A stretch of 64,000 nucleotides of DNA from an uncultured Acetatifactor sp. (GCA_910586435.1 CAJUGT010000003.1:1782-65781), one strand, 5' to 3'. Positions 1,053 through 58,339 are shown, numbered from the stretch's first letter. The notes: generated by a model not told the origin, from the letters alone. Numbers and translations: made by a program.

Positions 1053-1101
1053 TACTAAAGTTTCCGCAGGAACTTCCCCATGTTCTCACTGATACTAGTG
1101 T

Positions 1102-1149
1102 TCCATCCGGTCAGTAACCGCATTTCAGTGCAGTTACTGACCGGATGGA
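1102..1149. repeat. 17-bp-stem hairpin, a short derivative of the inverted-repeat element at 21456-21607
   Basis: TCCATCCGGTCAGTAAC-N14-GTTACTGACCGGATGGA. The same arms plus flanking AGTGCT/AGCACT bound the longer copy at 21.5 kb. Confidence 0.7.
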
Positions 1150-1303
1150 GCACTGGACAGGAATAAAATTTTACAGCGGGAATATTATTTCAAGGTAGGA
1201 TTATGCTGAACAAGACCATGAAAAGCATCCACAGTTTGGTGTTAAGAGTTATTGGTTTGAACCGTCATGGGGCGAGATTAGCCCCATAGAATTCATATTT
1301 GGT

Positions 1304-1771: not shown

Positions 1772-2177
1772 GATTCATTCCTCCTATTCCAGTTCCCGCC
1801 TGCGGGAACTTGTTCCGGTCTCTGCACTTCGGTGCCCCTATGAAGGAAGGGTTATTCAGCCGCTTTTGCGTCTGAAAACCCTTCTCTGTGTCTGAAAGAC
1901 ACATTGCACCCCCGTTTCAAGACTGTTTTTAAATTTCCTCTTGACATTTCTTAGCTGGACTATTGAGTATAAAGTTATCCCCTAATATATTGATAAATTT
2001 TGCCTGCTGGTATTATAGCATATGCTGTTTTAGATTACAAGAAATATGGGATGGTTACTGTCCAGACCTGACAGCTCCAAGTGGCTTGCGGGTACTTTGT
2101 TTCTCCAGGGGACGGCGCAGGAATCATTTAAACAAATGAAAAAGGTTGAATTTACATTGTAATTCCCAGGAGCAAGT

Positions 2178-2469
2178 GGTATAATGTTGACACAGAAAGG
2201 CATTGTGTCAACTTCTGATTCCAAATGCGCTGAAGCGCATGAAATCATGGTATCATGTTGACACTCAAGGGCATTGTGTCAACTTCTGATTCCAAATGCG
2301 CTGAAGCGCATGAAATCATGGTATCATGTTGACACTCAAGGGCATTGTGTCAACTGTTGATTCCATGTGCGCTAAGGCGCGCAAAATCAGGGTATAATGT
2401 TGACACTGAAGGGCATTGTGTCAACTTCTGATTCCAAATGCGCTGAAGCGCACAGGATTATGGTATAAT
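2178..2469 (+). repeat. 4 x 71-bp head-to-tail 'A' units plus a closing GGTATAAT (modular structured repeat family)
   Basis: Units start at 2178, 2249, 2320 and 2391, with period exactly 71. Each is GGTAnnATG-TTGACAC-N11-GTGTCAAC-TTCTGATTCCAAA-TGCGC-TGAA-GCGCA-TGAAATCAT. Confidence 0.9.
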
Positions 2470-2646
2470 ATGTCCATATTCAGGGCGGGAATCGGCCGAA
2501 GGGCCATTAGCTGCCAGTGTCAAATCCACATGCTCCAAAACCAGAGCCATACACAAATGCCGGAACAAAAAGAAATGACCCATGTATAAAAATGTTCGGT
2601 GAAAAAATTCAGATAACCTACACACATATATAATAATATCAAAAAT

Positions 2647-4437
2647 ATGAATTCCAATAATAAAAAATATAATTCTTTTCAGATACCCAAAAGGACAGAG
2701 CATACGGGAGTTCCTACACCTCCCGGAAAGAAAGCTTCCTCCCTTCCCCAGGGACAGATGGACCTCTCCGACTCTTATTATGAGATAGAATACGACTCAT
2801 GTCCCATGCCAGGAGTGGGAAAATATGTATTAAAATCTCAGAAAATAGAGCAGCCCAAAAAGGACCAGGTCAGGGAATTATTCAACCAAATGAGAGATAT
2901 TGCCAGAGAAGACAGGTATCTTAATTTTCGTACCTCCGGTTTCTATGACAAAAAACTCCAGCAAGATAAGTCCCGGATATTTTATAAACAGGGAATATTT
3001 ATGCAGGACTTTGAGGACACCTATGAGCGGCAGGTGCCTTTTTCTTCCTATTTTCCCGATTATCAGATGATGGGATACGAACAGCTCCGAACCTATTTTA
3101 CATGGCGCGCGAAAGTTCGGTCAGGAGACATTGCTGACACTTCCCTTTCCTATGCCTTCCTGTATTTCTACGAACTGCTGAATAACATTGGTGTGAAAGA
3201 CGCACAGGAAGGCATGAATGCAATCATGTCTTTTTGGAAGACTTTTCGTGTATATCACCAGGAAATTGATAAGTATGTCATACACTGGCTGAAAGATTAC
3301 CATATATACTATGATTTACCCTGGTCTTTTAAGGATTTTATCAAAGAAAATAATCTGGGGGTACATTATCCGAAAGTGATAAATCCTGACGATAATTTTG
3401 ATTTTTATTGTTCCTTATCCAAATATGACATACGAAAATCGAAATTCTACAATGATGATACCCTTTGGTTGATTCGGGATTGTTTTGACCATGTGATAAA
3501 GAGATTACGGGATTCTTTGTCCGAGCAGAAGATATTTTTGGAGGATTTACTGTTTCGATCTCCCAAAAACATGACACCCTGGACTCCCTTCCAGAACGCT
3601 TTGTTCTATCCCGGTCTCAGACACAGAGACAAACGGGTAATACTTTCAGAAAAGGAAATCTATGTCCGCAGCCAGAATACATGGAAATTCCACACAACCA
3701 TTGCCACAGAAAGCGGAAAACAGTTCATTGGTTATATAGTAAAGCAGATGGAATCCGTCTTAAGGACGGCCATGAAATACAAGTACAAACTTTCCGTCAA
3801 AAGCGATGCTCTCAGCCAGGACACTGCAAATACATTGTCACAGGCAGGAATCTCCATAGAGAAACTGGTTACGGAAGCCACCATGGAATTCTACCGTGAA
3901 GCCACCAGGACTGTGGTAAAAGTAAATCCGGGCGCATTGGACAAAATCCGTCAGGAAGCATTGATGACACAGGAGAGACTGATTGTGCCGGAAGATGTCC
4001 AGGAAGAACCCTTCGTAGCGAAATCAGAGGACAGTTCTCCCGTCGCCCCTTCTCCAATGGCTGAACAGGACTTTTCCCGTCCTGAACCATCCACTGCCAG
4101 CCTGGATTCTCTTTCTGACCCCTGGGAATGTCTCAGAAACGCTTTCACTTCTCTGGAACAGGATGCTATCATCCATTTGTGGATGAATCAGGAAAATATT
4201 ACTCCATGTACGGAGAGCCCTAAGGCACAAATATGTGACTTGAAGCAGTTTGCTCAAAATAATAATATTATGTTGGAAGTGCTTATAGACGGAATCAATG
4301 AAAAAGCCGTGGACTGCATCGGTGACAGCCTTTTAGACGGAGAATTTGTCTTTTTTGAGGATTATATAGAACAAATAAAAGGAATGGTGAATCAGTTATG
4401 GCAGGAAAAGTACCCACAAGAATTGCCAATATTTTAA
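2647..4437 (+). CDS. sngA: TerB-N/TerB-C domain protein (Shango SngA-like)
   Basis: TerB-N-like signature YFPDYQMMGYEQLRTYFTWRAKVRSG...SYAFLYFYELLNNIG. It is the first gene of a tightly packed three-gene operon. The start is uncertain because there is no clear SD. Confidence 0.65.
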   Translation: MNSNNKKYNSFQIPKRTEHTGVPTPPGKKASSLPQGQMDLSDSYYEIEYDSCPMPGVGKYVLKSQKIEQPKKDQVRELFNQMRDIAREDRYLNFRTSGFYDKKLQQDKSRIFYKQGIFMQDFEDTYERQVPFSSYFPDYQMMGYEQLRTYFTWRAKVRSGDIADTSLSYAFLYFYELLNNIGVKDAQEGMNAIMSFWKTFRVYHQEIDKYVIHWLKDYHIYYDLPWSFKDFIKENNLGVHYPKVINPDDNFDFYCSLSKYDIRKSKFYNDDTLWLIRDCFDHVIKRLRDSLSEQKIFLEDLLFRSPKNMTPWTPFQNALFYPGLRHRDKRVILSEKEIYVRSQNTWKFHTTIATESGKQFIGYIVKQMESVLRTAMKYKYKLSVKSDALSQDTANTLSQAGISIEKLVTEATMEFYREATRTVVKVNPGALDKIRQEALMTQERLIVPEDVQEEPFVAKSEDSSPVAPSPMAEQDFSRPEPSTASLDSLSDPWECLRNAFTSLEQDAIIHLWMNQENITPCTESPKAQICDLKQFAQNNNIMLEVLIDGINEKAVDCIGDSLLDGEFVFFEDYIEQIKGMVNQLWQEKYPQELPIF

Positions 4438-5714
4438 TTAACGCATTAAAAGGCGGCGTAGTGCCCCGAGCCGGACTGGAATATATTACCGTGGGCCGGA
4501 CACAGGAAATTGCCGCCATTCTCCATGATATTGAGATGATTGAAGAAGGCGGCGCTTCTTTTCGCTTTATCGTGGGAAAATACGGAAGCGGAAAAAGTTT
4601 TCTGCTTCAGACCATACGAAATTATGCCACTGCCAGGGGATTTGTGGTGGTGGACGCGGATCTCTCACCGGAACGCCGTTTTGCGGGTACAAAGGGACAG
4701 GGACTTGCCACTTATAAGGAATTGATTCAAAATTTATCCACAAAGTCCAAACCCGACGGAGGCGCTCTTCCACTTATCCTGGAAAAATGGATTTCCGGCA
4801 TACAGACTTCCGTGAAAACCCAGTCTTCCGCCCAGGGGGAGGACTTCGATATTCTGGTGGAAAAACAAATTTATGCCGTGGCGGGTTCTCTGGAAGGCAT
4901 GGTCAATGGATTTGAGTTTGCCAGAGCCGTTGTGCTCTATTGGCAGGCATACAAACAGGACGACAATACTTTGAAGTCCAATGTTCTCCGATGGTTCCGT
5001 GGGGAATACCCCTCTCGAAAAGAAGCCAAAGAAGACCTTGGCATCAATTTTATTGTCACCGATGAGACCTGGTATGATTTTTTGAAGCTTTTTGCCGCCT
5101 TTCTGGTTGGGGCCGGCTACAAAGGAATGCTGGTTATCATCGACGAACTTGTAAACCTGTATAAGATACCCAATTCCATTACCCGCGCCAACAATTATGA
5201 GAAAATTCTCACCATGTACAATGATGTGCTTCAGGGCAAGGCCAGACATATCGGCTTTCTCATGGGAGGTACCCCGCAATGTATCGAGGATAAATACAAG
5301 GGTATCTTCAGTTATGAAGCCCTGCGCTCACGTCTGGCGGAAGGTCACTTCTCCACTGCCGACACCAGAGATTTTTCCGCTCCCATTATCAGGCTTCAGA
5401 TGCTCACCCAGGAGGAAATGTATATCCTGGTGGAAAAATTACAAAATATCCATGCCGGGCTCTACAACTATACCCCTGCCCTGTCCCAGGAAGACCTGGT
5501 ATATTTTCTGACAGTGGAATACAACCGTGTAGGAGCATCCACCCATATTACCCCAAGGGAAATCATTCGGGATTTTATAGAACTAATCAATATTTTATAT
5601 CAAAATCCGCAGAAAACCGTCTCTGAAATTCTGGGAGACAACAGCTTTGAAATGGCAAAGGGCGGAATAGATGGGGAAGAAATACGGGAAGAATTTCAGG
5701 AATTTGAAATATAA
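4398..5714 (+). CDS. sngB: DUF2791/BrxD-like P-loop ATPase (Shango SngB-like)
   Basis: N-terminal GGVVPRAGLEYITVGR, Walker A GKYGSGKS, Walker B LVIIDELVN. Overlaps the upstream gene by 40 nt. Confidence 0.7.
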   Translation: MAGKVPTRIANILINALKGGVVPRAGLEYITVGRTQEIAAILHDIEMIEEGGASFRFIVGKYGSGKSFLLQTIRNYATARGFVVVDADLSPERRFAGTKGQGLATYKELIQNLSTKSKPDGGALPLILEKWISGIQTSVKTQSSAQGEDFDILVEKQIYAVAGSLEGMVNGFEFARAVVLYWQAYKQDDNTLKSNVLRWFRGEYPSRKEAKEDLGINFIVTDETWYDFLKLFAAFLVGAGYKGMLVIIDELVNLYKIPNSITRANNYEKILTMYNDVLQGKARHIGFLMGGTPQCIEDKYKGIFSYEALRSRLAEGHFSTADTRDFSAPIIRLQMLTQEEMYILVEKLQNIHAGLYNYTPALSQEDLVYFLTVEYNRVGASTHITPREIIRDFIELINILYQNPQKTVSEILGDNSFEMAKGGIDGEEIREEFQEFEI

Positions 5715-5732
5715 CACCATTAACCTGACAGG

Positions 5733-7952
5733 ATGAAAAAAATGAACATATTTGACAGACTTGCCCCTTTTATTCAAGACTTTATCTACCAGAACCACTG
5801 GGAAGAACTTCGCGGCAATCAGGTAGCCGCCTGTGAAGTGATATTTGACAGCCATGATAACCTGCTATTATCCTCCGGCACTGCGTCCGGCAAGACAGAA
5901 GCCGCTTTTCTGCCCGTGTTGACCGATATCTACGAACATCCGTCAAATTCCGTTGCGGTGATTTATATTTCGCCTCTGAAAGCCTTGATCAATGACCAGT
6001 TCAAACGTCTGGAACAACTGCTTTTGGATTCCAATATTCCCGTGACAAAATGGCATGGAGACGCCTCCCAGACCCGGAAAAACAAACTGATAAAGAATCC
6101 GGAAGGCATCTTGCAGATTACTCCGGAATCCCTGGAAAGCCTCATTACCAATAAACGCGGCGCCTGCCTGTCCATGTTTTCCGACCTGCGTTATGTCATC
6201 ATCGACGAAGTACATCATTTTATGCGGGATGTGCGGGGAGTACAGCTTCTATGCGTCCTGGAACGGCTCAAAGCTCTCACAGGAGTGAACCCCAGGAGAA
6301 TCGGCCTCTCCGCCACTCTTGGAGATGTGTCCGTGGCACAGGAATGGCTGAATACCGGAACCGGACGGGAATGCGCCGCCCCCATTATGGATGAAGGAAA
6401 GAAAAGAATCCGGCTTCACATTGAACGATTTGTAAATTACGCAGATAAGCGGGATCTGGTGGAACGGGATGCCATAGGAAACATCGAACGAACGGACTCC
6501 GGCGGTGATATTGGAGACAGGGAACATTACGAATACCTTTTCCAGCAGACACTGGACAAGAAAACCATTCTCTTTACCAACAGCCGGGAAGAAACCGAAC
6601 TTGTCATGGCCCATCTTCGGGAAATTGCATTAAAACATAAAGCCCCCGACGTGTACAGGGTTCATCATGGAAATGTCTCAGCTCTCCTGCGGGAGAACAC
6701 GGAAGACGAAATGAAATCCGAGGACGAAAAAATTGTCACCGGCGCCACAGTGACTTTGGAACTTGGCATTGACATTGGTTCCCTGGATCAGGTAGTGCAG
6801 GTGGGCGCCCCTTTAAGCGTATCCAGTTTTGCCCAGCGCCTTGGCCGCTGCGGACGCCGGGGACAGGTGCCCCAATTGCTTTTTACCTTTGTGGAAAGCC
6901 TGAAAATTAATTCTTCTGATATTTTAGGCCCTATTAACTGGAATTATATCCGAACCATTGCCATCATTGAACTCTATCTGAAAGAACATTGGCTGGAACC
7001 CATTCCTCCCCTGTACCACGCCTATAACCTGCTGTACCACCAGACCATGAGCTGCCTGAAAAGCAATGGGGAAATGTCCCCTGCCGGCCTTGCCCAGTCC
7101 GTACTGAGCCTGGGATGCTTTCGGTATATCCCTCAGAAGGATTACAAACTGCTCTTAAATCACCTGATTCAAATAGAACAGCTGGAACGGACAGAAAGCG
7201 GAGGGTTGGCAATCGGACGTGCCGGAGAAAAAATAGTAAACAGTCACAAATTTCTAACCGTTTTTTTAGCGCCGGAATATTTTCTGGTAAAAGATGAAAA
7301 CCGCACCATTGGCACTGTGGACAAGGTATATCCGGTGGGTACCCATTTTTCTTTGGCAGGAATCTCCTGGGAAACTGTTGACGTCAATGAAAAGTCAAAG
7401 GTTATTTTTGTCAAACGGGTTCCCGGTATCTCAGTCGTAGACTGGGATGTGGACTTTGAAGTGGAACTCCATACCATTCTGGTGAAGAAAATGCGCAGTA
7501 CTCTGCAAACAGAGGATTCTTATCCTTACCTGAGCGAACGCTGCAAGGAACGATTACAGGAAATACGGTATATTACCCGCAACAGCGGTATTTTGGAACA
7601 TTTGGTGACACCACTTTCCGAAAAAAAATACGCCGTCTTCCCCTGGGTGGGCACCAGACAGCTCGTCACACTCCACTATGCCCTGCTGCAACGGAAAATT
7701 AAGAGCAAAATCCCGTGGAATATGAGCGTATATCTGGAAGTCATTTTTGAAGGGACAAAAGAAGAACTGGAACAAATCATTTTTGATATACTGTCCAAAA
7801 ATCTGGATACCTACGGCTTGCCCCTGCCTGACAAGATACAGATTCAGGGCAAATACAATGAGTTCATTCCTCTGAAATTACTGAGAAAACAGTTTATTGA
7901 AGACTTTCTGGATTTTGAGGGATTGCGGAATGATTGCCTCCTGCAACAATGA
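5733..7952 (+). CDS. sngC: superfamily-2 DEAD/DEAH (DEVH, Lhr-like) helicase (Shango SngC-like)
   Basis: Motif I SGTASGKTEAA, motif II IIDEVHH, motif VI QRLGRCGRRG. Starts 19 nt after sngB. Confidence 0.75.
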   Translation: MKKMNIFDRLAPFIQDFIYQNHWEELRGNQVAACEVIFDSHDNLLLSSGTASGKTEAAFLPVLTDIYEHPSNSVAVIYISPLKALINDQFKRLEQLLLDSNIPVTKWHGDASQTRKNKLIKNPEGILQITPESLESLITNKRGACLSMFSDLRYVIIDEVHHFMRDVRGVQLLCVLERLKALTGVNPRRIGLSATLGDVSVAQEWLNTGTGRECAAPIMDEGKKRIRLHIERFVNYADKRDLVERDAIGNIERTDSGGDIGDREHYEYLFQQTLDKKTILFTNSREETELVMAHLREIALKHKAPDVYRVHHGNVSALLRENTEDEMKSEDEKIVTGATVTLELGIDIGSLDQVVQVGAPLSVSSFAQRLGRCGRRGQVPQLLFTFVESLKINSSDILGPINWNYIRTIAIIELYLKEHWLEPIPPLYHAYNLLYHQTMSCLKSNGEMSPAGLAQSVLSLGCFRYIPQKDYKLLLNHLIQIEQLERTESGGLAIGRAGEKIVNSHKFLTVFLAPEYFLVKDENRTIGTVDKVYPVGTHFSLAGISWETVDVNEKSKVIFVKRVPGISVVDWDVDFEVELHTILVKKMRSTLQTEDSYPYLSERCKERLQEIRYITRNSGILEHLVTPLSEKKYAVFPWVGTRQLVTLHYALLQRKIKSKIPWNMSVYLEVIFEGTKEELEQIIFDILSKNLDTYGLPLPDKIQIQGKYNEFIPLKLLRKQFIEDFLDFEGLRNDCLLQQ

Positions 7953-18022: not shown

Positions 18023-18508
18023 CTATATAATTTCTACTCTCTCAAAATATTTCATTAATATATCAGCGCAGTTTTCAATTCCCAGCCTGGAAGTATCCAA
18101 TATCATATGGTAATTATTCACATCCCCCCAAACCTTTCCTGTGTTCTGATAATAATATTCCGAACGTGCCTTATCGTTTTTCTCCAACAGGGCTTTTGCC
18201 TCTTCATAGGATAGTTTTTCTTTCTTCATAATCCTTTGAATGCGATCTTCCTTGTCGGCACAGACATAGATATGAAATACATTGGTCTGATCCTTCAGAA
18301 TCTCAGAAGCACATCGTCCCAAAATAATACAGGAATTTGCTGCCAGGTTCCTGATGACTTCCGCCTCATCCACATAACTGTCTCCTTCCAGCTCATGTTC
18401 AATATAAGCTCTGTCATACACCGGTATTTCAAGCTTTTGGGACAATTCTCCCGCTATCATACTTGCACCGGTTCCAAACCTACGGCTCATTGTAATCACC
18501 AGATTCAT
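18023..18508 (-). CDS. cytidylate kinase-like family protein
   Basis: N-terminus MNLVITMSRRFGTGASMIAGELSQKLEIPVYDR is typical of the Cytidylate_kin2 family. GGGAGG RBS. Confidence 0.7.
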   Translation of the reverse strand: MNLVITMSRRFGTGASMIAGELSQKLEIPVYDRAYIEHELEGDSYVDEAEVIRNLAANSCIILGRCASEILKDQTNVFHIYVCADKEDRIQRIMKKEKLSYEEAKALLEKNDKARSEYYYQNTGKVWGDVNNYHMILDTSRLGIENCADILMKYFERVEII

Positions 18509-18587
18509 AATTCATCCTCCCGTACCGATAAGGATTTCATGCTTTGACAATTTCCATCAAATTGCCCTGCCAATACCCCTTATCTTT

Positions 18588-18841
18588 CCATGGCCATTCG
18601 GCCGGTTCCTGCCTTCCATAATTTCGTGTGTTTCAACACACTTGGAATCAGAAGTTGACATAACGTCTTTTGTGTCAACATTGTACCATGATTTCCGCAA
18701 TGCTTCGGGCAGAGACCCGAAAAACCTTCTGTTTTTCGGGTTCGCTTCGCTTGCCAAATGTCCAAAGAAGCATCTGCTCAAACAAGTTTGGCAGTTGCTT
18801 CTTTGGACGCTTGGCTCTGCCCTTTGCGGACATTGTACCAT
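18588..18841 (-). repeat. composite B + A + C modules of the structured repeat family (minus orientation)
   Basis: The reverse complement of 18690-18841 aligns almost base-for-base with 58078-58233. 18616-18689 is an A unit. 18588-18613 resembles 2484-2510. Confidence 0.9.
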
Positions 18842-18969
18842 AGTTTTACCCTTGTTACAAGTCTGTGAAAACGGTAAATGCAGGCAAAGAAATTTCCCGT
18901 ACCCCGAATCACCTTGCGGCGGCACCGAGTGAACAGTAATTTTTTGTTACGTTCACTTAGCATGACAAA

Positions 18970-19533
18970 TCATATTTGAAATAAACTGCCCACCGCCAAT
19001 TTTACCACACCACAGCAGACCATTACCAGAATCGGATTTTTCTTCCAGATACGAAGCACCAGAAAAGCAGCCAGAAATATGCCGCACTCCAGCCAGTGTA
19101 TATTGGCAAAACTTACTTCCGCCCCATCAAAGGCCACAAGTTTTAAAATGGACAGACCTGCTGCCGCAATCAAGGCCACAACCGCAGGCCGAAGACTTCC
19201 CAATACGCTTTGCAGCGCAGACATTTGCTTATAACGATAGTAAATAAAAAATAACAGGGACACTATCAGACAGGAAGGCAGGATACAGCCAATGGTGGCT
19301 ATCACCGCCCCAGGAATTCCGGCGATGCGAATGCCCACGAAAGTTGCAGAGTTTACCGCAATGGGTCCGGGAGTCATTTCCGCAATGGTTATCAAATCGG
19401 TAAACTCACTCATGGTAAGCCAACCATGTTTTGTTACCACCTGTGCCTGTATCAGGGGCATGGCTGCATACCCTCCGCCAATGCTGAACATCCCCACCTG
19501 AATAAAACTTAACAATAACTCTAAATAAATCAT
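18970..19533 (-). CDS. chromate transporter (CHR family, short half-size protein)
   Basis: FSIGGGYAAMPLIQ...EMTPGPIAVNSATFVG motifs. Confidence 0.8.
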   Translation of the reverse strand: MIYLELLLSFIQVGMFSIGGGYAAMPLIQAQVVTKHGWLTMSEFTDLITIAEMTPGPIAVNSATFVGIRIAGIPGAVIATIGCILPSCLIVSLLFFIYYRYKQMSALQSVLGSLRPAVVALIAAAGLSILKLVAFDGAEVSFANIHWLECGIFLAAFLVLRIWKKNPILVMVCCGVVKLAVGSLFQI

Positions 19534-19659: not shown

Positions 19660-20250
19660 TCATGATTTCTTTTTCCGTTTCCACACTTCCATACAGATAC
19701 CTGCCAATGCCGCCGCAAGAATAATGTATATCACATTCACTTCCCATACAAAGGTTGCCAGAAACGCTGTAATCATCACAATTAAATGTATTATATTACG
19801 GTTTTTCAAAACTCCCGACCCAAGACCGCATACCACATCCAGAATCACGGCAGCCACGCCTGCCTGCATTCCTTTCAGCAACAGAGCAATATATGTATTG
19901 GTTGCAAAAGCGGCATAAAAAAAGGAAATTACAGATAACAACACCATGGGTGGAATAATAGTTCCAATCACCGCAATTAACATGCCTGGAAAACCACCCA
20001 TTCTCCACCCCACCAATATGGCCGCATTCACGGCAATTGCCCCCGGAGAAGACTGGGCCAATGCGGCCAAATCCAGCATTTCATCTTCCTCAATCCAATG
20101 ATACTCATCTACAAATTTCTTCTTCATAAAGGTAATGATTACAAAACCTCCCCCAAAAGTAAACGCGCTGATATACAAAGTACTGAAAAATAATTGAAGT
20201 AATATTTTCTTCTTATTCTCTTCCATCTCTATCTTCTCCTGCTCTGCCAT
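19660..20250 (-). CDS. chromate transporter (CHR family, partner half)
   Basis: FTFGGGFVIITFM...QSSPGAIAVNAAILVG. Paired with 18970..19533, as is usual for split ChrA. Confidence 0.8.
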   Translation of the reverse strand: MAEQEKIEMEENKKKILLQLFFSTLYISAFTFGGGFVIITFMKKKFVDEYHWIEEDEMLDLAALAQSSPGAIAVNAAILVGWRMGGFPGMLIAVIGTIIPPMVLLSVISFFYAAFATNTYIALLLKGMQAGVAAVILDVVCGLGSGVLKNRNIIHLIVMITAFLATFVWEVNVIYIILAAALAGICMEVWKRKKKS

Positions 20251-20327: not shown

Positions 20328-20550
20328 ATTTTACCATGATTTCGTGCGCTTTAGCGCACTTGGAATCAGAAGTTGACACAATGCCCTTCTGTGTCAACAT
20401 TTTACCATAATTTTGTGTGCTTCAGCACACATGGAATCAGAAGTTGACACAATGCCCTTCTGTGTCAACATTTTACCATAATTTTGTGTGCTTCAGCACA
20501 CATGGAATCAGAAGTTGACACAATGCCCTTCTGTGTCAACATTTTACCCT
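20328..20550 (-). repeat. 3 x 71-bp 'A' units (minus orientation) upstream of the chromate transporter genes
   Basis: TACC junctions at 20332, 20403, 20474 and 20545 (period 71). Units 2 and 3 are identical. Confidence 0.9.
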
Positions 20551-20875
20551 GTTGGCGGAACCATGCTCTATCAAACTTTCCTGTCATAATCTCTCCCTGA
20601 ACCATTCCAAATAATATTTCTCTAAGTATACTGCGTATTACCCGCTCTGTCAATTTTCACTGGATTGTATCTCTTAGATAAGGAACTTTCTTTGCTCATT
20701 TTACCTCGACACCTAAGCCCCACCTGTCCGGCAGCCAGCCGGATAAGGAATACAGTGCGGCTTTCTATCTTAATTGTTCCATGGACAAAACCGAAACATA
20801 ATAGTATAATGAAATTATTCAAAATTCTGGTTTATGAGGATACACAGCTTAACAAAGCGTGTCGAAAGGAGTATT

Positions 20876-21295: not shown

Positions 21296-21388
21296 GATTA
21301 ATGAATAATACACTAAAAAGGAACCTCTTTACATTGTCAAAGAGGTTCCCTTACTATAAAACTGTAAAAAACCTCAAATTGCACTCTG

Positions 21389-21449
21389 GAGCATGTTTGA
21401 AAATTGCTTTCTGACAGCTGTGCTTACAAAGCAATTTTCAAACATGCTC
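21389..21449. repeat. perfect 22-bp-stem hairpin downstream of the HIT gene
   Basis: GAGCATGTTTGAAAATTGCTTT-N17-AAAGCAATTTTCAAACATGCTC. No T-run follows, so it is not a classic terminator. Confidence 0.7.
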
Positions 21450-21455
21450 TAGTAC

Positions 21456-21607
21456 TCCATCCGGTCAGTAATCGTACTTTCAGTACCGCCTATTTTGCCA
21501 TCTACTGCGTTGTCGTCAGCAGGCGTGTCCACCGCATCGTCTCCTTCCTCCGCCTTGCAGACTGCCAAAATATTTGGCACTGGCAGTGCAGTTACTGACC
21601 GGATGGA
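21456..21607. repeat. ~150-bp element bounded by ~22-bp terminal inverted repeats (MITE-like)
   Basis: AGTACTCCATCCGGTCAGTAAT ... GTTACTGACCGGATGGAGCACT. The same termini form the hairpin at 1102-1149. Confidence 0.65.
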
Positions 21608-21695
21608 GCACTAGGCACTGGAAAGGGTTTCTTGCTCTCTTGCGCAAAACCCCGAGACAGCAATGCGCCAAACCCAATAGAAAGGAACCCGCCTT

Positions 21696-31518: not shown

Positions 31519-32367
31519 TCATTTGATTTTAAATCTTGCCATTTTTTCTAATGTATTGCTGTCAATGTTGCAGACAGCATCTATGATATAATTTCGATAC
31601 GTGGCATTTCCATCCACTTTCCCCATTCTCTTGTATGCCATTTCTCCACATACTCCCATGGTACATACGGCCGCTGCCGCCGCTTCCAGAATGTTTTCAG
31701 GGCAGGCGGTAATGAAAGCCGCTGTCAGAGCCGAAAGCTGGCATCCTGTTCCTGTTATCCTGCTCATCATAGGATGCCCATTATAAATGCAGTAGGCTTT
31801 TTCTGCGTCGGCAACAATGTCTATGACGCCTGTAATTGCAATTATGGCATGGCTTTTCTCCGCAAAGGCTTTTGCAAAGCCTATGGCTTTCTCCAGATTG
31901 TCTTCTGTAATTACATCATTTACATTGGCGTCCACTCCCTTTGTAGAACCGCTTCCCATAGCAAGTGTTTTTATTTCAGAACTGTTTCCCCGTATGACAC
32001 TGAATTTCACTTGCTGCATCAATTGAACTGCCGTATCCGTCCTTAACGCCGAAGCACCCGCGCCCACAGGATCAAGTACCACAGGATGTCCCAATTCATT
32101 GGCTTTTTTTCCGGAAGCGAACATGGCAGGTATTGTCCTTTGATTTAAAGTTCCTATATTGATATTCAATCCTCCGCATATGGATGTAATTTCCTCCACT
32201 TCGTCAATATCATCGGACATTATGGGCGACCCGCCACAGGCCAACAATATATTGGCGCAATCATTTACAGTCACATAATTTGTAATATTGTGAATCAATG
32301 GATGATACTTTCTCACATCATCCAAAATTTCTCCAAACATCATTTTTGCTCTTTCTTCCAATTTCAT
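31519..32367 (-). CDS. thiM: hydroxyethylthiazole kinase
   Basis: HNITNYVTVNDCANILLACGGSPIM and ITGTGCQLSAL motifs. Start at MKLEE, with a GGAAGGAG RBS. Confidence 0.85.
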   Translation of the reverse strand: MKLEERAKMMFGEILDDVRKYHPLIHNITNYVTVNDCANILLACGGSPIMSDDIDEVEEITSICGGLNINIGTLNQRTIPAMFASGKKANELGHPVVLDPVGAGASALRTDTAVQLMQQVKFSVIRGNSSEIKTLAMGSGSTKGVDANVNDVITEDNLEKAIGFAKAFAEKSHAIIAITGVIDIVADAEKAYCIYNGHPMMSRITGTGCQLSALTAAFITACPENILEAAAAAVCTMGVCGEMAYKRMGKVDGNATYRNYIIDAVCNIDSNTLEKMARFKIK

Positions 32368-32486
32368 TTCTCCTTCCCATTGATAAGATAATAAGTTATG
32401 AGCCCTCGTGTGCATAAAAAAAGAAGTCAGCCAGCCTGGTAACTTCCGTAGAAAATACATTGCTACACCACAGTAAATGTATGTGT

Positions 32487-32585
32487 CTCAAATCCTATGA
32501 TCCCTACGTTGGCATTACCCAAATCAGGTTATCGGTCGAAGGTCATACCTTCCTCTCAGCCTGTCATACAAGCTCCCGTTTCTTC
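32487..32585 (-). promoter_or_regulatory. TPP (THI-box) riboswitch
   Basis: The minus strand reads GGGAGC..GCUGAGAGG..ACCUUCGACCGAUAACCUGAUUUGGGUAAUGCCAACGUAGGGA, matching the conserved THI-box core. It lies ~120 nt upstream of thiM. Confidence 0.85.
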
Positions 32586-32856
32586 AATTTTGTTTATTAT
32601 ACACCTTTTCCAGAGGCTTAGCAAGTTATGACGCTACCTATTTTTTTTTCAGCTGCCTCCTGCTTCTCACGCAGCCTTGACGAGTATTGTCCATGCCTGA
32701 CAATTATGGCTGAACTGGTGTTCCAGGTTGTAGCCATAGTTTTATATTAATCTGCTGCGAATTAAGTTTAAGTCAGAATATGTTGATTGTATATTAGAAG
32801 GGAAAATGTTATACTCATATATGAAATCTTTCTATTCTATTGGAAAGTGAGGGAAA

Positions 32857-34341
32857 ATGATGTATATTTCATTGAAACAGCTTATAAAAAATATAACTTT
32901 ATTTCTGGCTCTTTTCTTCCTCTTTGGAGGATTTTCTTCTCATGCAGAGGAACTGACCCCTGTTTTCACTTTATCCACAGGCGGCGACGGAACCTATATG
33001 AAAGACGGCGACTACAATACATCCTATACCTTTCAAGCAGGCGACACAATCTCCGTAACATCAAAAGAAAACACTCCCATTTCCGGACTCTATATTATTT
33101 GGGACAGCCTGGTTCCAGAGTGGACCTTACATACGGATGCGGAAGATATTCTCTGCGGCCAGCACGGATTCCTGCATGAATACATTTCTCTTAATTCACC
33201 TGCGGCAGACACAGTTATCAATATTCTTCATGACAATGTTCGCATAAGTGATATTCGCGTTTTTGGTGAAGGCACACTTACGGAGGATGTACAGATATGG
33301 AATCCTCCTTGTGAGAGGGCGGATATTCTCCTTGTGCCGGCCCATGCGGATGATGAAATACTCTTTTTTGGAGGAATTATCCCAACCTATGGCGTAGAAC
33401 AGGAGGCCCAAATTCAGGTTGCCTATATGTCCGAGTTCTGGAGTTCCGCAAAAATTCGCGAACATGAAAAACTGGACGGTTTATGGGAAGCCGGACTGCG
33501 AAACTATCCCGTATGCGGCAATTTTAAAGATGTATATTCCGATACATTGGAGAAAGCTCAGGAACAGTACAATTTCGATGACATGACAGCCTATATCACA
33601 GAACAAATCCGACGCTTTAAGCCCCAGGTCATTGTAACACATGATGAAAAAGGGGAATATGGACATGGTTTCCATATGCTGACATCAAAAGCCGTAACTA
33701 CGGCAGTGGAAGCCGCTTCAAATGAGACTCAGTATACGGACTCCGCTTCCCTGTATGGCATATGGGACACCCCAAAGACATATCTTCATCTATACAAAGA
33801 AAATATGATACGCCTGGACTTAAGGAGTCCCATAGAATCCATGGGCGGCCGTACTGCGCTTGAAATAGCCGCAGATGCCTATAAAAAGCATGTTTCACAG
33901 CAATGGTGCTGGTTCTATGTATCGGATGATTATGAATACAGTTGCGCGGAATTTGGTCTATACCGCACATTGGTTGGCACTGATTCTCTGGGAAATGACC
34001 TTTTGGAGAATTTGAAAACCTATAAAGTTCAGCAACAGGAAGAAGAGCGCCTGGAAGCGGAACAGAGGAAATTAGAAGAGGAACGCCTGGAACGGGAAAG
34101 AAAGGAACAGGAAGAACAGCTGAGACTGGAACAGGAAAAACGGGAACAGGAAGAACAGCTGAGACTGGAACAGGAAAAATTGGAACAAGAGGAACAGCTG
34201 AGACTGGAACAGGAAAAACAGGAGCAGGAAGAACAGCTTTATTCTTTTATTATGATTCTGTTAATTATCATGGGCATATTGCTTACCATACTGATTATTG
34301 CGGGAACAGGTATGATTTTAAAAAGAAAAAACAGAAAATGA
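32857..34341 (+). CDS. PIG-L/LmbE-family deacetylase with signal peptide, C-terminal coiled-coil repeats and a TM anchor
   Basis: LLVPAHADDEILFFGG and THDEKGEYGHGFH motifs. N-terminal signal-like LFLALFFLFGGFSSHA. C-terminal hydrophobic LLIIMGILLTILIIAG. Confidence 0.75.
   Translation: MMYISLKQLIKNITLFLALFFLFGGFSSHAEELTPVFTLSTGGDGTYMKDGDYNTSYTFQAGDTISVTSKENTPISGLYIIWDSLVPEWTLHTDAEDILCGQHGFLHEYISLNSPAADTVINILHDNVRISDIRVFGEGTLTEDVQIWNPPCERADILLVPAHADDEILFFGGIIPTYGVEQEAQIQVAYMSEFWSSAKIREHEKLDGLWEAGLRNYPVCGNFKDVYSDTLEKAQEQYNFDDMTAYITEQIRRFKPQVIVTHDEKGEYGHGFHMLTSKAVTTAVEAASNETQYTDSASLYGIWDTPKTYLHLYKENMIRLDLRSPIESMGGRTALEIAADAYKKHVSQQWCWFYVSDDYEYSCAEFGLYRTLVGTDSLGNDLLENLKTYKVQQQEEERLEAEQRKLEEERLERERKEQEEQLRLEQEKREQEEQLRLEQEKLEQEEQLRLEQEKQEQEEQLYSFIMILLIIMGILLTILIIAGTGMILKRKNRK
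34105..34236 (+). repeat. in-frame 39-bp tandem repeat (about 3.4 copies) encoding (R/Q)EQEEQLRLEQEK
   Basis: GAACAGGAAGAACAGCTGAGACTGGAACAGGAAAAACGG is repeated from 34105. Confidence 0.85.
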
Positions 34342-47794: not shown

Positions 47795-48004
47795 TTACTT
47801 TTCTATTTTAATTTCTTCCCCATGAAATTCCACCATATCACCGGCCACAAGCTTTCGTCCGCGCCTTGTATCCACCTCACCGTTTACCTTTACCTCACCG
47901 TCCTGAACCACTATTTTCGCTTCCACACCTGAATCCACCAGCCCGGCTGCCTTTAATGCCTGACCTAATTTAATATAATCGTCCTTTAAATGAATGAAAT
48001 GCAT
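47795..48004 (-). CDS. yaaA: S4-domain RNA-binding protein YaaA
   Basis: 69 aa in the conserved position between dnaN and recF. S4-like KLGQALKAAGLVDSG...VNGEVDTRRGRKL. Confidence 0.8.
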   Translation of the reverse strand: MHFIHLKDDYIKLGQALKAAGLVDSGVEAKIVVQDGEVKVNGEVDTRRGRKLVAGDMVEFHGEEIKIEK

Positions 48005-48108
48005 TTTATCCCTCTTTCATTACGGCATTCAGCCGCAATATTGATTTTCTACAAAATTCTACAAAACATGACCATAATTCAAACATCACTCAGTGATATC
48101 CCCGTGAA

Positions 48109-50985: not shown

Positions 50986-51169
50986 ATGATATTCCTTTAT
51001 TGCCGGGCGCATTGGCAGGGCTGTGGCTCTTTTGATGTAGTTTCCCTTTCGGTTCCAAAGCGGCTGAACATTCTTTGCTTTGGACGATATTTGTGGGGGG
51101 TCGTAATCCCGCCCTTCTATTGTAATATAGATTCCCTAATATTTCAAATATAAGTTTTGTTCATAAGGG

Positions 51170-56132: not shown

Positions 56133-58073
56133 ATGGATATGGAAAAGGTAGATGTTTGTATCGTGGGCGCAGGTCATGCGGGATGTGAAGCAGCTTTGGC
56201 ATGTGCCAGATTGGGGATGGAGACGGTAATATTTACGGTAAGTGTGGACAGCATTGCTCTCATGCCCTGTAATCCGAATATTGGAGGTTCTTCCAAAGGA
56301 CATTTGGTCAGGGAACTGGATGCCCTTGGAGGGGAGATGGGTAAAAATATTGATAAAACATTTCTTCAGTCCAAGATGCTGAATGTTTCCAAAGGTCCGG
56401 CCGTTCATTCTCTTCGCGCGCAGGCGGACAAGTCCGAATACTCCAGGGCAATGAGGAAGGTTCTGGAGGGGCAGGAACATATAACCATTAAACAGGCTGA
56501 GGTTTGTGAACTTTTATGGGAAGAAGTATCCCATAATGATTCCCGGAAACCAAGCGGCATAAATGCTGAAAAAGGGAACAGGAAAAAGATAAAGGGTGTC
56601 AGGACTTACACGGGGATGGTCTATGAGTGCCATGCCGTGGTTTTGTGTACGGGTACTTATCTTGGGGCAAGATGCCTGTGTGGTGAGTCAATCACTTATA
56701 CGGGTCCCAATGGGTTGCAGGCGGCGACGCATCTGACACAGTCTCTGAAGGATATGGGGATTGAGCTTCGGCGTTTTAAGACGGGCACACCTGCCAGGAT
56801 GGATGGGAGAAGTATTGATTATACAAAGATGGAAGAACAATTTGGAGATAAGAGGGTGGTGCCCTTTTCCTTCTCCACGGCTCCGGAATCGGTTCAGAAA
56901 GAGCAGGTATCCTGCTGGCTGACCTATACAAATGAGGAAACCCATGAGATTATTCGTAGTAATCTGGACAGATCACCTATCTATGCGGGAATTATAGAGG
57001 GTACGGGCCCAAGATACTGTCCGTCCATAGAAGATAAGGTGGTAAAATTTGCCGATAAGAACAGACACCAGGTATTTATAGAACCGGAAGGGATGCATAC
57101 AAATGAAATGTATGTTGGGGGCATGTCTTCTTCTTTGCCGGAAGATGTACAGTTGGCCATGTATCGCACGGTTCCGGGACTGGAACATTGTAAAATTGTG
57201 AGAAATGCCTATGCGATTGAGTATGACTGTATTGATGCCAGACAGTTAAAGACAACTCTTGAATTCAAGGATATAGAGGGATTATTCAGCGGAGGACAGT
57301 TAAACGGGAGCAGCGGATATGAGGAAGCGGCCTGTCAGGGGTTGGTTGCAGGTGTCAATGCGTCCATGTACATACTGGGCAGAGAACCTTTGACAATTGA
57401 CCGGTCTGAAGGTTATATAGGAGTTTTAATTGATGATTTGGTTACAAAGGATAACAGGGAGCCTTATCGTATGATGACTTCCCGTGCGGAATATAGACTG
57501 CTTCTGAGACAGGATAATGCTGATTTGCGTCTTCGGAAAAAGGGATATGAAATCGGTTTGATTTCCAGACAGGAATATGAGGCGTTACTGGAAAAAGAAA
57601 AGATGATAAAGGAGGAAATCAAACGACTGAAAGATACTTCGGTTGGCGCAAGAAAAGACATTCAGGAGTTTCTTCAGGCACATGGCAGTTCCGAATTGAA
57701 AACATCCGCAAGTCTTGCGGAATTAGTATGTCGTCCTGAACTTTCGTATGAAATCATAGGAGAGATAGATCAGAACAGAAAGCAATTGCCTGAAACGGTA
57801 AAAGAACAGGTGGAAATTGAAATCAAATATGAAGGGTATATTGAAAGACAGACCCGTCAGGTTGAGCAGCATAGGAAAATGGAAAGAAAACTCATACCGG
57901 AATACATTGATTATGATAAAATTTCCTCCCTCAGACTGGAAGCCCGGCAAAAACTAAAACTGTATCGTCCCGTCTCCATTGGACAGGCTGCCAGGATTTC
58001 TGGAGTGTCTCCTGCGGATATTTCTGTTCTGCTGGTATACTTAGAACATAGTTTTTATTTGAAGAATGAATAA
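56133..58073 (+). CDS. mnmG: tRNA uridine 5-carboxymethylaminomethyl modification enzyme MnmG
   Basis: FAD motif [13 protein letters not shown], plus [13 protein letters not shown]. The start is ambiguous between 56133 and 56139. Confidence 0.95.
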
Positions 58074-58077
58074 ACAT

Positions 58078-58296
58078 ATGGTATAATGTCCGCAAAGGGC
58101 AGAGCCAAGCGTCCAAAGACGCAACTGCCAAACTTGTTTGAGCAGATGCGTCTTTGGACATTTGGCAAGCGAAGCGAACCCGAAAAACAGAAGGTTTTTC
58201 GGGTCTCTGCCCGAAGAATCGCAGAAATCATGGAATAAAGTTGACACAGAAATGCATTGTGTCAACTTCTGATTCCAAGTGCGTTTCAGCGCAAGA
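58078..58296 (+). repeat. B module (~150 nt) plus one A unit of the structured repeat family
   Basis: Starts 5 nt after the mnmG stop with ATGGTATAATG. Near-identical to the reverse complement of 18690-18841. The A unit begins at GTTGACAC (58240). Confidence 0.9.
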
Positions 58297-58339
58297 AATA
58301 AATATGTATTAATATTCTTATCTTGAGGAGGGTATATTG

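What the first reader, a model, noticed from the sequence alone, without database searches (positions are those of the whole stretch)
18588..18841. Second copy of the B module shows a compensatory base-pair change relative to the 58-kb copy
The reverse complement of 18690-18841 aligns with 58078-58233 with only a handful of differences. In the long hairpin the 58-kb copy has GTCCAAAGACGCA...TGCGTCTTTGGAC. The 18-kb copy has GTCCAAAGAAGCA...TGCTTCTTTGGAC. This is a C-G pair replaced by A-T through two coordinated substitutions. The outermost helix is perfect here (TCCGCAA/TTGCGGA) but weaker in the other copy. Read on the minus strand the order is B, then A, then a C-like module (GGCAGGAACCGGCCGAATGGCCATGG), then TTGGCAGGGCAA, then the RBS and ATG (18508) of the cytidylate-kinase-like gene. 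The ORF-track entries 18557..18925 and 18642..18932 are translations of this repeat.
Basis: seen in the sequence. Interest (0 to 1): 0.65.

Follow-up and report, generated by a model that had tools for sequence, protein, structure and literature searches.

The report
Promoter-linked structured RNA repeat module

Summary

That pair alone proves little. Among seven near-identical B copies from mouse-gut assemblies it reads C-G twice, A-T twice, and A.G, C.A and C.T once each, which is about what independent variation gives. The outer helix TCCGCAA/TTGCGGA is not conserved.

The wider claim holds. Eight diverged B copies, 72-80% identical where measured, were recovered from other metagenome assemblies. 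They keep a closing stem (GGGCAGA/TCTGCCC), a 27-bp hairpin, an invariant junction (GAGCGAAGCGA) and an 11-bp hairpin. In that alignment:
- 95.5% of cells pair.
- 16 of 45 pairs have changes on both sides (0 of 500 shuffles reach this).
- G.U outnumbers A.C 28 to 6, which favours the strand that points toward the downstream gene.

Every copy sits at a fixed distance behind a TGnTAnAAT box. Nine of 12 array-first copies also have a -35-like hexamer 17-18 nt upstream. No terminator follows the two window copies. The downstream gene is co-oriented in 13 of 13 loci and its function varies.

B combines with a 71-nt tandem unit (A) and a short tail (C). Unit numbers differ between samples. Rfam has no match.

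Best reading: a promoter-proximal structured RNA leader module within a BOX-like modular repeat. Its function is untested.

The parts
18832..18860 (-). Promoter-like site directly upstream of the 18-kb B copy: TTGTAA, 17 nt, TG-n-TACAAT
   Evidence: 9 of 12 consensus matches, TG present. The same arrangement appears in family members.
18707..18822 (-). B core, 18-kb copy: closing stem P2 (GGGCAGA/TCTGCCC), long hairpin P3 (18753-18815), junction GAGCGAAGCGA (18742-18752), hairpin P4 (18715-18741)
   Evidence: MFE fold, family consensus fold, pair counts, covariance-model hit of 178 bits at 18687-18843(-).
18769..18799 (-). The flagged base pair in the 18-kb copy: A (18799) with T (18769), read on the minus strand
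   Evidence: Its state in other copies is (A4 columns 44/94: AU 4, CG 4, unpaired 3).
18694..18830 (-). It is perfect here but not conserved.
   Evidence: helix 1 (75% paired, no compensatory change). It is absent from the RNAalifold consensus.
18621..18695 (-). Single A unit (71-nt repeat): box ATGGTACAATG, hairpin GTTGACAC/ATGTCAAC, TTCTGATTCC, second hairpin GTGTG/CACAC
   Evidence: (D5).
18562..18613 (-). C-like tail: GGCAGGAACCGGCCGAATGGCCATGG (18588-18613) and TTGGCAGGGCAA (18562-18573). A related tail follows arrays at 2484-2507 and in L014, L011 and L019.
18023..18508 (-). Downstream co-oriented gene, cytidylate-kinase-like (PF13189)
58059..58087 (+). Promoter-like site directly upstream of the 58-kb B copy: TTGAAG, 17 nt, TG-n-TATAAT. 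The -35 hexamer lies inside the last codons of mnmG.
   Evidence: 10 of 12 consensus matches, TG present.
58097..58212 (+). B core, 58-kb copy (P2, P3, junction, P4). The flagged pair is C58120-G58150.
   Evidence: covariance-model hit of 179 bits at 58076-58232(+).
58224..58299 (+). Single A unit after the 58-kb B copy. The downstream gene starts at 58340 (no Pfam hit).
   Evidence: (D2).
2170..2507 (+). Array of four A units (2170-2470) plus a C-like tail (2484-2507), upstream of a TerB_N/TerB_C gene (2647-4437)
   Evidence: (D1, D2).
20328..20551 (-). Array of three A units upstream of the chromate-transporter gene 19660-20250(-)
   Evidence: (D5).

Best explanation
B is one module of a modular, multi-copy intergenic repeat (modules B, A and C).

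**Anatomy of B.** It begins with a sigma-A-type promoter: a -35-like hexamer, 17 nt, then TGnTAnAAT. A roughly 125-nt RNA fold follows, starting a few nucleotides after the expected transcription start. The fold is a three-way junction. A 7-bp closing stem encloses a 27-bp hairpin, usually capped by a CUUG-type tetraloop, then an invariant single-stranded GAGCGAAGCGA, then an 11-bp hairpin.

**Inferred working.**
- The RNA strand is the one that points toward the downstream gene.
- No terminator follows the two window copies. B, and any A or C units after it, would therefore form the 5' leader of the downstream mRNA. In effect it is a portable promoter-plus-structured-leader cassette.
- Its likely effect is on the expression or stability of whatever gene lies downstream. 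It could act as a 5'-terminal structure that blocks 5'-end-dependent decay, as an RNase III-type processing site, or as a binding site for a factor that recognises the invariant junction.
- Modules are gained, lost and shuffled by recombination or slippage at the shared ATCATGGTAYAATG box.

**Shown:** the family, its structure and covariation, the strand bias, the promoter consensus, the orientation, the modularity and the copy-number polymorphism.

**Inferred:** that it is transcribed, that it acts in cis, and what the biochemical effect is.
For: **Family.** Translating the repeat and searching protein databases recovered other copies called as ORFs. One metagenome DNA scan added more. The DNA was fetched.

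**Structure.**
- RNAalifold on a MAFFT alignment of 11 lineages predicts P2, P3 and P4 independently. 16 of 45 pairs are kept through changes on both sides.
- 95.5% of cells pair, against 86.9% in shuffles. There are 44 double-change cells against 13.5 in shuffles (0 of 500 reach the observed value). Slid controls give at most 8 double-change cells.

**Strand.** G.U appears in 28 cells (15 pairs) and A.C in 6 cells (5 pairs). The wobble at the base of P3 is G.U in 8 lineages and A-U in 3. Full-length covariance-model hits occur only in the forward orientation, at 138-179 bits. The single weaker exception is a partial second unit in L023 at 64 bits. Reverse-strand hits cover isolated hairpins only, at 44 bits or less.

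**Promoter.** 14 of 14 copies have TAnAAT at the same distance from the fold, and 13 of 14 have TGn. Nine of 12 array-first copies have a hexamer matching TTGACA at 4 or more of 6 positions, 17-18 nt upstream, in otherwise unalignable flanks. The background rate is 13%. My binomial estimate from those figures is about 2e-6. The tool scan agrees for both window copies.

**Terminators.** None is found in either window locus.

**Orientation.** The downstream gene is co-oriented in 13 of 13 loci where one can be read. In two window A arrays and at the TetR locus the upstream gene is divergent. That places the element 5' of a gene rather than 3' of one.

**Downstream genes.** They are unrelated in function: a cytidylate-kinase-like gene, ruvA, TetR, a LytTR regulator, GH8, glutamine synthetase III, membrane proteins and others. 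This argues for a generic rather than a pathway-specific role.

**Modularity.** The arrangements seen are A-B-A-A versus A-B-A at one locus, A-B-B versus A-B-tail at another, and B-A-C and B-A in the window.

**Not coding.** There is a 20-nt insertion and there are 1-nt indels in stems. No start codon is conserved. Both window substitutions are non-synonymous in the open frame.
Against: - There are no expression data. The promoter call is consensus-based only.
- Among the near-identical copies, G.U (18) does not exceed A.C (29), so the strand signal rests on the diverged lineages alone.
- The invariant junction contains GCGAAGC, the heptamer known as an extraordinarily stable DNA mini-hairpin (PMC13037366). 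In both window copies the sense strand is also the lagging-strand template. A single-stranded-DNA role is therefore not excluded.
- The invariance of P2 and the junction could reflect recognition by a transposase or recombinase rather than an RNA function.
- The diverged set holds only 8 lineages, found through ORF calls. Copy number per genome is unknown outside the mouse-gut clade.
- A simple 5'-stabiliser role would not need such sequence conservation.
Confidence: 0.5

Rival explanations
1. B is a DNA-level mobile element: a MITE-like or single-strand-transposed element, or a recombination site. The invariant GGGCAGAG/CTCTGCCC arms would be terminal inverted repeats bound by a transposase. 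The hairpins would be single-stranded-DNA recognition structures. The flanking ATGGTAYAATG boxes would be a target-site duplication made by insertion into existing -10 boxes. Transcription would be incidental.
For: - B is bracketed by direct repeats of the box in the mouse-gut clade and, in degenerate form, in L014, L021, L023 and L024.
- P2 and the junction are invariant while the inner stems vary.
- GCGAAGC is a known hyper-stable DNA mini-hairpin (PMC13037366).
- The -35-like hexamers lie in unique flanks, as expected if pre-existing promoters were the targets.
- In both window copies the sense strand is the lagging-strand template.
- The element is multi-copy and its unit number varies between samples.
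Against: - B's orientation relative to the asymmetric box is the same in 14 of 14 copies. Classical inverted-repeat transposition would insert both ways.
- No transposase, RAYT or reverse-transcriptase gene was annotated in any fetched locus or among the 17 window proteins scanned.
- No copy was found in viral, plasmid or phage collections.
- The upstream box stays a perfect -10 in diverged lineages while the downstream box decays. This fits selection for promoter function.
- A G.U wobble kept across lineages is more typical of RNA.
- The 2.2-kb A array points against the direction of replication.
Confidence: 0.2
2. B is a free-standing small RNA gene family, either trans-acting or protein-sequestering. 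It has its own promoter, is processed out of longer transcripts, and happens to sit in intergenic regions.
For: - A promoter sits at a fixed distance, and the fold is compact, conserved and covarying with invariant unpaired nucleotides.
- L021 has a weak hairpin followed by a U-rich tract about 45 nt after B, seen by eye.
- Several copies per genome is common for sRNA families.
Against: - No terminator-like site follows B in either window locus, and none is obvious in most other loci.
- Strict co-orientation with the downstream gene in 13 of 13 loci is not required of a trans-acting sRNA.
- B is embedded in arrays with A units, and tandem B-B occurs.
Confidence: 0.15
3. B is a ligand- or polymerase-responsive cis-regulatory RNA: a new riboswitch-like aptamer, or a put/EAR-like element that modifies RNA polymerase. 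It would control whatever gene lies downstream.
For: - It is a three-way junction with invariant junction nucleotides and covarying stems, placed immediately after a promoter.
- Extra copies of the P2 3' arm (CTGCCC) lie downstream in L016, L023, L024 and L025, and extra copies of the P2 5' arm (GGGCAG) lie downstream in w18, L011, L014, L019 and L027. These could form alternative pairings. In L025, GGCAGA overlaps the start codon.
Against: - The downstream genes share no functional theme.
- No terminator or consistent RBS-sequestering platform is present.
- The GGGCAG copies mostly belong to one homologous tail module, so they are not independent observations.
- Near-identical multi-copy spread with varying unit numbers looks like a repeat element.
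- Rfam has no match.
Confidence: 0.1
4. The double substitution, and the hairpins in general, carry no function. They would be palindromes maintained by gene conversion or template switching between the arms, and the C-G to A-T change would be chance.
For: - The flagged pair varies almost independently among close copies: 4 of 7 are paired and about 3 of 7 are expected.
- The changes concentrate on mirror-image CpGs.
- L010_B2 looks like a recombinant.
- Both strands fold equally well.
Against: - Across diverged lineages, 16 pairs carry compensatory changes, with asymmetric G.U use. P4 and P3 keep their architecture while their sequence changes. The unpaired junction is invariant.
- Arm-to-arm conversion would give perfect palindromes. 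It would not give conserved bulges and a conserved G.U.
Confidence: 0.05

Closest known systems
Pneumococcal BOX elements (boxA-boxB(n)-boxC), Croucher et al. 2011, PMC3049150
   Same: - Both are small intergenic interspersed repeats built from three module types, with a variable number of the middle module.
- Both have extensive predicted RNA secondary structure and are thought to be co-transcribed with neighbouring genes.
- Large arrays of both are mis-annotated as ORFs on both strands.
- Unit number varies between strains (PMC3049150; here).
   Different: - No sequence relationship was tested or seen.
- Here every module starts with an extended -10 box.
- B is always co-oriented with the downstream gene.
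- B is conserved, with covariation, across diverged lineages, not only within one species.
- Terminal inverted repeats and a target-site duplication are not established here.
Neisseria Correia elements, ERIC, REPIN and 'putative mobile promoters' (Nijveen, Matus-Garcia and van Passel 2012, PMC3575422)
   Same: - They are repeats that carry or create promoters and are reused upstream of unrelated genes.
- Their long double-stranded RNA stems can be RNase targets (as summarised in PMC3049150 and PMC3575422).
   Different: - Correia and REP elements have defined inverted-repeat ends and known or proposed transposases (RAYT for REPIN). None was found here.
- B has a three-way junction with an invariant single-stranded segment, which those elements lack.
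Riboswitch-type and leader RNAs of Firmicutes (for example the TPP riboswitch at 32484-32589 in this window)
   Same: They are promoter-proximal, with covarying helices around conserved junction nucleotides, on the sense strand of the downstream gene.
   Different: - B shows no coherent downstream gene function.
- It has no terminator or RBS platform.
- It is multi-copy with tandem modules.
- No Rfam family matches.
UG27 reverse-transcriptase ncRNA arrays (bioRxiv 10.64898/2026.09.22.753630)
   Same: They are arrays of structured units of about 150 nt in gut bacteria, with gain or loss of units between related loci.
   Different: - UG27 arrays sit next to RT, sORF and bORF genes in prophages, and their units are sequence-diverse.
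- Here there is no RT in the window or in any fetched locus, and no hit in viral contigs.
- The units here are near-identical and scattered upstream of housekeeping genes.
Type III toxin-antitoxin RNA repeats (ToxI-like); comparison from my own knowledge
   Same: They are tandem short structured RNA repeats behind a promoter and upstream of a gene, as with the A arrays.
   Different: No ToxN-like toxin gene follows the arrays. The downstream genes are diverse, and no terminator separates the repeats from the gene.

Membership tests
Any Rfam 15 RNA family | Covariance-model score at or above the family gathering threshold | tested here: not met
   Across the whole window only TPP passes. Permissive E<=10 scans of 18500-18980 and 2100-2560 give only sub-threshold chance hits. 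Six loci with diverged B copies give nothing relevant.
BOX-like / MITE-like interspersed modular repeat | Multiple dispersed intergenic copies within a genome or clade | tested here: met
   The window holds two B loci and four A loci. At least four further B loci at 94-98% identity come from mouse-gut assemblies.
BOX-like / MITE-like interspersed modular repeat | Modular build with a variable number of internal units | tested here: met
   A occurs 1 to 4 times and B 1 or 2 times. The same locus differs between samples: L003 versus L005, and L010/L018 versus L011/L012.
BOX-like / MITE-like interspersed modular repeat | Terminal inverted repeats | tested here: inconclusive
   The P2 arms GGGCAGAG/CTCTGCCC are invariant and inverted. 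They lie inside the box-delimited unit, and the outer P1 arms are not conserved.
BOX-like / MITE-like interspersed modular repeat | Target-site duplication, shown against an empty site | tested here: inconclusive
   A direct repeat of ATGGTAYAATG flanks B, but no empty site could be retrieved. The fixed orientation in 14 of 14 copies argues against random-orientation insertion.
BOX-like / MITE-like interspersed modular repeat | Sequence homology to boxA, boxB or boxC | not tested
Sigma-70/sigma-A promoter | -10 TATAAT-like hexamer, optional TGn extension, -35 TTGACA-like hexamer at 16-18 nt | tested here: met
   Searches cover the window copies. One search gives 14 of 14 with TAnAAT, 13 of 14 with TGn, and 9 of 12 array-first copies with a -35 match of at least 4 of 6, against a 13% background.
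Sigma-70/sigma-A promoter | Demonstrated transcription start | not testable with these tools
   No expression data are available.
Structured functional RNA (generic) | Covariation above controls, with a strand-specific wobble bias | tested here: met
   (16 covarying pairs; 0 of 500 shuffles reach this; slid controls are low). (G.U 28 versus A.C 6). Caveat: there are only 11 lineages, and R-scape was not run.
Riboswitch | Functionally coherent downstream genes and an expression platform | tested here: not met
   The downstream genes are unrelated. No terminator-like sites are present.
REP/BIME-RAYT or IS200/IS605-derived elements | Associated Y1/HUH transposase gene and characteristic conserved tetranucleotide plus hairpin ends | tested here: inconclusive
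   No such gene lies next to any copy or among the scanned window genes. Whole genomes could not be searched.
UG27 RT ncRNA array | Adjacent RT, sORF and bORF genes in a prophage | tested here: not met
   No reverse transcriptase is annotated in any fetched locus or among the scanned window proteins. The viral-contig scans found no copy of the repeat; the single hit was a chance match.

The most novel reading that the evidence does not exclude
B is a new class of cis-acting regulatory RNA with a built-in promoter. It could be a riboswitch-like sensor of a global signal, or a put/EAR-like element that reprograms RNA polymerase or recruits a specific RNA-binding protein through the invariant GAGCGAAGCGA junction. 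It would have spread as a portable cassette upstream of unrelated genes across gut Clostridia-like bacteria. The downstream GGGCAG/CTGCCC copies would act as alternative pairing partners.
Probability: 0.15. Interest if true: 0.8.

Novelty: new variant of a known kind. Interest (0 to 1): 0.55.

Why it matters
If B is transcribed as inferred, it is a compact, portable promoter-plus-structured-leader unit. Gut anaerobes would have copied it in front of many unrelated genes, and it is absent from Rfam.

- It would be a natural case of promoter and 5'-UTR reuse rewiring expression in poorly studied, mostly uncultured gut bacteria.
- It would explain a class of spurious hypothetical ORFs in metagenome annotations.
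- It would supply a variable-number repeat marker for strain typing.
- The invariant junction inside covarying helices gives a concrete target for finding the protein, ligand or nuclease that recognises it.

There is also a methodological lesson. One compensatory pair between two near-identical repeat copies is not evidence. Diverged family members are what decide the question.

Tried and rejected
**Searches that led nowhere**
- The genome-contig scan with TTGGCAAGCGAAGCGAACCC gave only two chance hits, in a Verrucomicrobiae MAG and in Actinophytocola.
- Viral-contig scans with A and B patterns found nothing or one chance hit.
- blastn against the plasmid and phage collections found nothing.
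- The third protein-word search, using six-frame translations of the diverged copies L014 and L016, found nothing.
- P0008 and P0014 from the representative search are low-complexity repeat proteins and were ignored.
- A full-text search for the junction motif returned only unrelated primer sequences.
- Two 2026 preprints on intergenic features do not describe this element.

**Ideas rejected**
- Restriction-site avoidance as the cause of the hotspot. GACGC/GCGTC is not depleted in the window: 31 and 35 observed against about 37 and 36 expected.
- A coding reading of B. The frames are open only because stop codons are rare. Indels that are not multiples of three, the absence of a conserved start codon, and non-synonymous changes rule it out.
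- The outer helix P1 as part of the conserved fold.
- A promoter made from the TTGACA inside A units. The spacing to any -10-like hexamer is wrong on both strands (my inspection).

**Result weaker than hoped**
- A-unit covariation is only modest. Hairpin 1 is nearly invariant. Hairpin 2 has 3 covarying pairs, a count that 74 of 500 shuffles reach.

Full report
**1. The observation**

The 18-kb region read on the minus strand and the 58-kb region read on the plus strand are two copies of the same ~160-nt element. They are 95.1% identical over 163 nt.

- The 58-kb copy has C58120 paired with G58150.
- The 18-kb copy has A paired with T, read on the minus strand at window positions 18799 and 18769.

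The outer helix TCCGCAA/TTGCGGA is perfect at 18 kb and has two mismatches at 58 kb. The order B, A, C-like tail, TTGGCAGGGCAA, RBS, ATG is correct. The gene that follows is a Cytidylate_kin2 family member.

Both strands fold far better than shuffled sequence, with z between -8 and -10.7.

The ORFs over the region are artefacts. Their only relatives among 5.8 billion proteins are other translated copies of the repeat.

**2. Repeats in the window**

B occurs only twice in the window. A 71-nt unit, A, occurs nine times.
- Four tandem units at 2170-2470 (+), followed by a C-like tail.
- Three tandem units at 20328-20551 (-).
- One unit after each B copy.

Every unit, whether A, B or C, begins with ATGGTAYAATG.

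The window spans oriC. Five DnaA boxes lie at 51178-51370 and the GC skew flips there. The 2.2-kb array points with its downstream gene and against the direction of replication, so orientation follows transcription.

**3. Finding more copies**

The single genome-collection scan gave only chance hits. I therefore used the fact that gene callers translate these repeats.

Searching with the translated repeat, in one frame and then in five frames joined together, returned six ORF products that are B copies. Their contigs come mostly from mouse-gut metagenomes, plus one NCBI MAG.

These near-identical copies (94-98%) lie at four further loci, in these arrangements:
- A-B-A-A or A-B-A upstream of a LytTR regulator.
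- A-B-B or A-B-tail upstream of a TetR gene.
- B-tail (L019).
- B-A-A upstream of an AraC-like gene (L020).

The same locus differs in unit number between samples.

A metagenome DNA scan with a 20-mer from the junction gave two diverged copies, 73% and 80% identical. One lies upstream of ruvA (L014/L015) and one upstream of a membrane protein (L016).

A profile search of the 1.84-billion representative proteins gave six more diverged copies. They are L021/L022, L023, L024, L025, L026 and L027.

**4. The flagged pair**

In the 11-sequence alignment dominated by close copies, the pair reads A-U four times, C-G four times, and is unpaired three times.

Counting distinct close loci gives:
- C-G twice.
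- A-T twice.
- A.G once (L010_B2).
- C.A once (L019, a contig with 0.7x coverage).
- C.T once (L020).

That is 4 of 7 paired, against about 3 of 7 expected under independence.

Within the 13-bp stem, all variation among close copies hits the mirror-image CpGs of GACGC/GCGTC. L010_B2 carries a 5' half like w18 and a 3' half like its tandem neighbour, so it is probably a recombinant.

A-T is the majority state in diverged lineages: A5 columns 48/98 read AU 7, CG 2 and GC 1. C-G is therefore probably the derived state.

Restriction-site avoidance does not explain the hotspot. Among close copies G.U (18) does not exceed A.C (29), so they carry no strand signal.

**5. The family**

I aligned three close copies and eight diverged lineages with MAFFT, without reference to any structure. 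RNAalifold predicted the same core on its own:
- A 7-bp closing stem, GGGCAGA/TCTGCCC.
- A 27-bp hairpin with a conserved internal mismatch and bulge, usually capped by a G(CUUG)C loop.
- An unpaired GAGCGAAGCGA.
- An 11-bp hairpin.

Sixteen of 45 pairs are kept through changes on both sides.

Pair counting gave the following:

| Measure | Observed | Shuffle control |
|---|---|---|
| Cells paired | 95.5% | 86.9 +/- 0.8% |
| Cells with changes on both sides | 44 | 13.5 +/- 3.1 |
| Covariation score | 0.308 | 0.150 |

None of 500 shuffles reached any observed value. Partners slid by 1-3 columns gave at most 8 double-change cells.

The outer helix P1 is not part of the consensus and shows no covariation.

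G.U outnumbers A.C by 28 to 6. The wobble at the base of the long hairpin is G.U in 8 lineages and A-U in 3. This favours the strand that points toward the downstream gene.

A covariance model built from this alignment finds full-length matches only in that orientation, at 138-179 bits. The one weaker exception is a partial second unit in L023 at 64 bits. It finds no further copies in the 163 kb held.

Rfam has no match for the window copies or the diverged copies.

**6. Promoter and context**

Every copy has TAnAAT at a fixed distance from the fold, and 13 of 14 have TGn before it.

Nine of the 12 copies that head their array have a hexamer matching TTGACA at 4 or more of 6 positions, 17-18 nt upstream. 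These hexamers sit in flanks that otherwise do not align. The background rate is 13%, and my binomial estimate is about 2e-6. The consensus scan flags the same sites at 58059-58087(+) and 18860-18832(-). It finds no terminator-like site in either locus.

The expected start lies 2-5 nt before the closing stem.

In 13 of 13 loci with a readable downstream gene, that gene is co-oriented. In several loci the upstream gene is divergent, so the element belongs to the 5' side of a gene.

The downstream genes are functionally unrelated.

**7. Interpretation**

The best-supported reading is a promoter-proximal structured RNA leader module. It is part of a modular repeat whose units recombine at the shared box.

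*Shown:* the family, the fold with its covariation, the strand bias, the promoter consensus, the orientation and the modular copy-number variation.

*Inferred:* that B is transcribed, that it acts in cis, and what it does. Candidate effects are protection of the 5' end, RNase III-type processing of the 27-bp helix, or recognition of the invariant junction by a factor.

I hold this reading at about 0.5.

The main rival is a DNA-level mobile element.
- In its favour: box direct repeats, invariant inverted arms, the GCGAAGC DNA mini-hairpin (PMC13037366) and the sense strand lying on the lagging-strand template.
- Against it: the fixed orientation relative to the box (14 of 14), selective retention of the upstream box as a -10, the absence of any nearby transposase, and the absence from viral, plasmid and phage collections.

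A free-standing sRNA, a riboswitch-like or polymerase-modifying element, and a functionless palindrome are less likely, for the reasons given under the rival explanations.

**8. Comparison with known systems**

In architecture the element works most like pneumococcal BOX elements: three module types, a variable middle module, structured RNA co-transcribed with neighbours, and spurious ORFs (PMC3049150). It also resembles promoter-bearing repeats and 'mobile promoters' (PMC3575422).

It differs from these in four ways:
- It has a built-in extended -10 box on every module.
- Its orientation is strict.
- It has a three-way junction with an invariant single strand.
- It is conserved, with covariation, across diverged lineages.

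It is not a member of any Rfam family. It is also not a UG27 array, because there is no RT and no prophage.

I rate it a new variant of a known kind.

**9. Limits**

- There are no expression data.
- Only eight diverged lineages were found, and they were found through ORF calls.
It has 42% G+C, and relatives of its repeat come mostly from mouse-gut assemblies.
- No empty sites were retrieved.
- R-scape was not run.

Noticed in passing
window 63722-63997 (runs off the window end): An unrelated tandem repeat of 69-nt units, at least four copies at 89-91% identity, lies just downstream of ORF 62049-63686(+). It has no sequence similarity to A or B.
   Followed up: no
window 1095-1157 and 21386-21614: A second interspersed palindromic repeat family shares CTAGTRYTCCATCCGGTCAGTAAYCG. 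One site has 26-nt arms with a 6-nt loop. The other has two nested or adjacent hairpins (D9, D11, I14, I16, I17, I20, I22).
   Followed up: no
window 2647-7952 (+): A three-gene cluster encodes a TerB_N/TerB_C protein, a BrxC/BrxD-like ATPase (PF10923, E = 7e-160) and a DEAD/ResIII helicase. It looks like a defence-type operon, and the four-unit A array sits directly upstream.
   Followed up: partly
window 48000-52000: The window spans the chromosomal replication origin. Five DnaA boxes (TTATCCACA) lie at 51178-51370 and the GC skew changes sign here. dnaA (49579-51012, -) and dnaN lie to the left; mnmG and rsmG lie to the right.
   Followed up: yes
window 18742-18752 and 58167-58177; all family members: The invariant junction of B contains GCGAAGC, the heptamer described as an 'extraordinarily stable mini-hairpin DNA' (PMC13037366). 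This hints that a single-stranded-DNA form could matter.
   Followed up: partly
L016 1775-1880; L024 3040-3110; L025 370-400; L023 818-984: In several diverged lineages the 3' part of B is duplicated again downstream of B. The duplicated part is the junction, P4 and CTGCCC, or just a 20-nt unit GGGNGGCTGCCCGYAGAAY repeated five times. This gives several alternative partners for the 5' arm GGGCAGAG.
   Followed up: partly
window 18588-18613 and 2484-2507; L014 ~8630; L011 ~1175; L019 ~560: The C tail (box + TCCATATT..GGGCAGG..CGGCCGAAKGGCC) resembles the first ~25 nt of B (box + TCCGCAAAGGGCAGAG). It may be a truncated B 5' end. Its GGGCAG could pair with the 3' arm of B's closing stem. GGCAG occurs in the leader of 7 of 13 loci, against about 2.4 expected (my estimate from the background rate), but most of these belong to this one homologous module.
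   Followed up: partly
window 32484-32589 (-): A TPP riboswitch (61 bits, above the gathering score) lies upstream of ORF 31519-32460(-).
   Followed up: no
window 34074-34229: An in-frame coding repeat with alternating 24- and 15-nt spacing, rich in Glu, Gln and Leu codons, lies inside ORF 32857-34341(+) (D4).
   Followed up: no
window 20620-20650 (-): A near-consensus promoter, TTGACA-17-TATACT, lies about 70 nt upstream of the three-unit A array (seen by eye). That array would then lie inside a 5' leader rather than start one.
   Followed up: no
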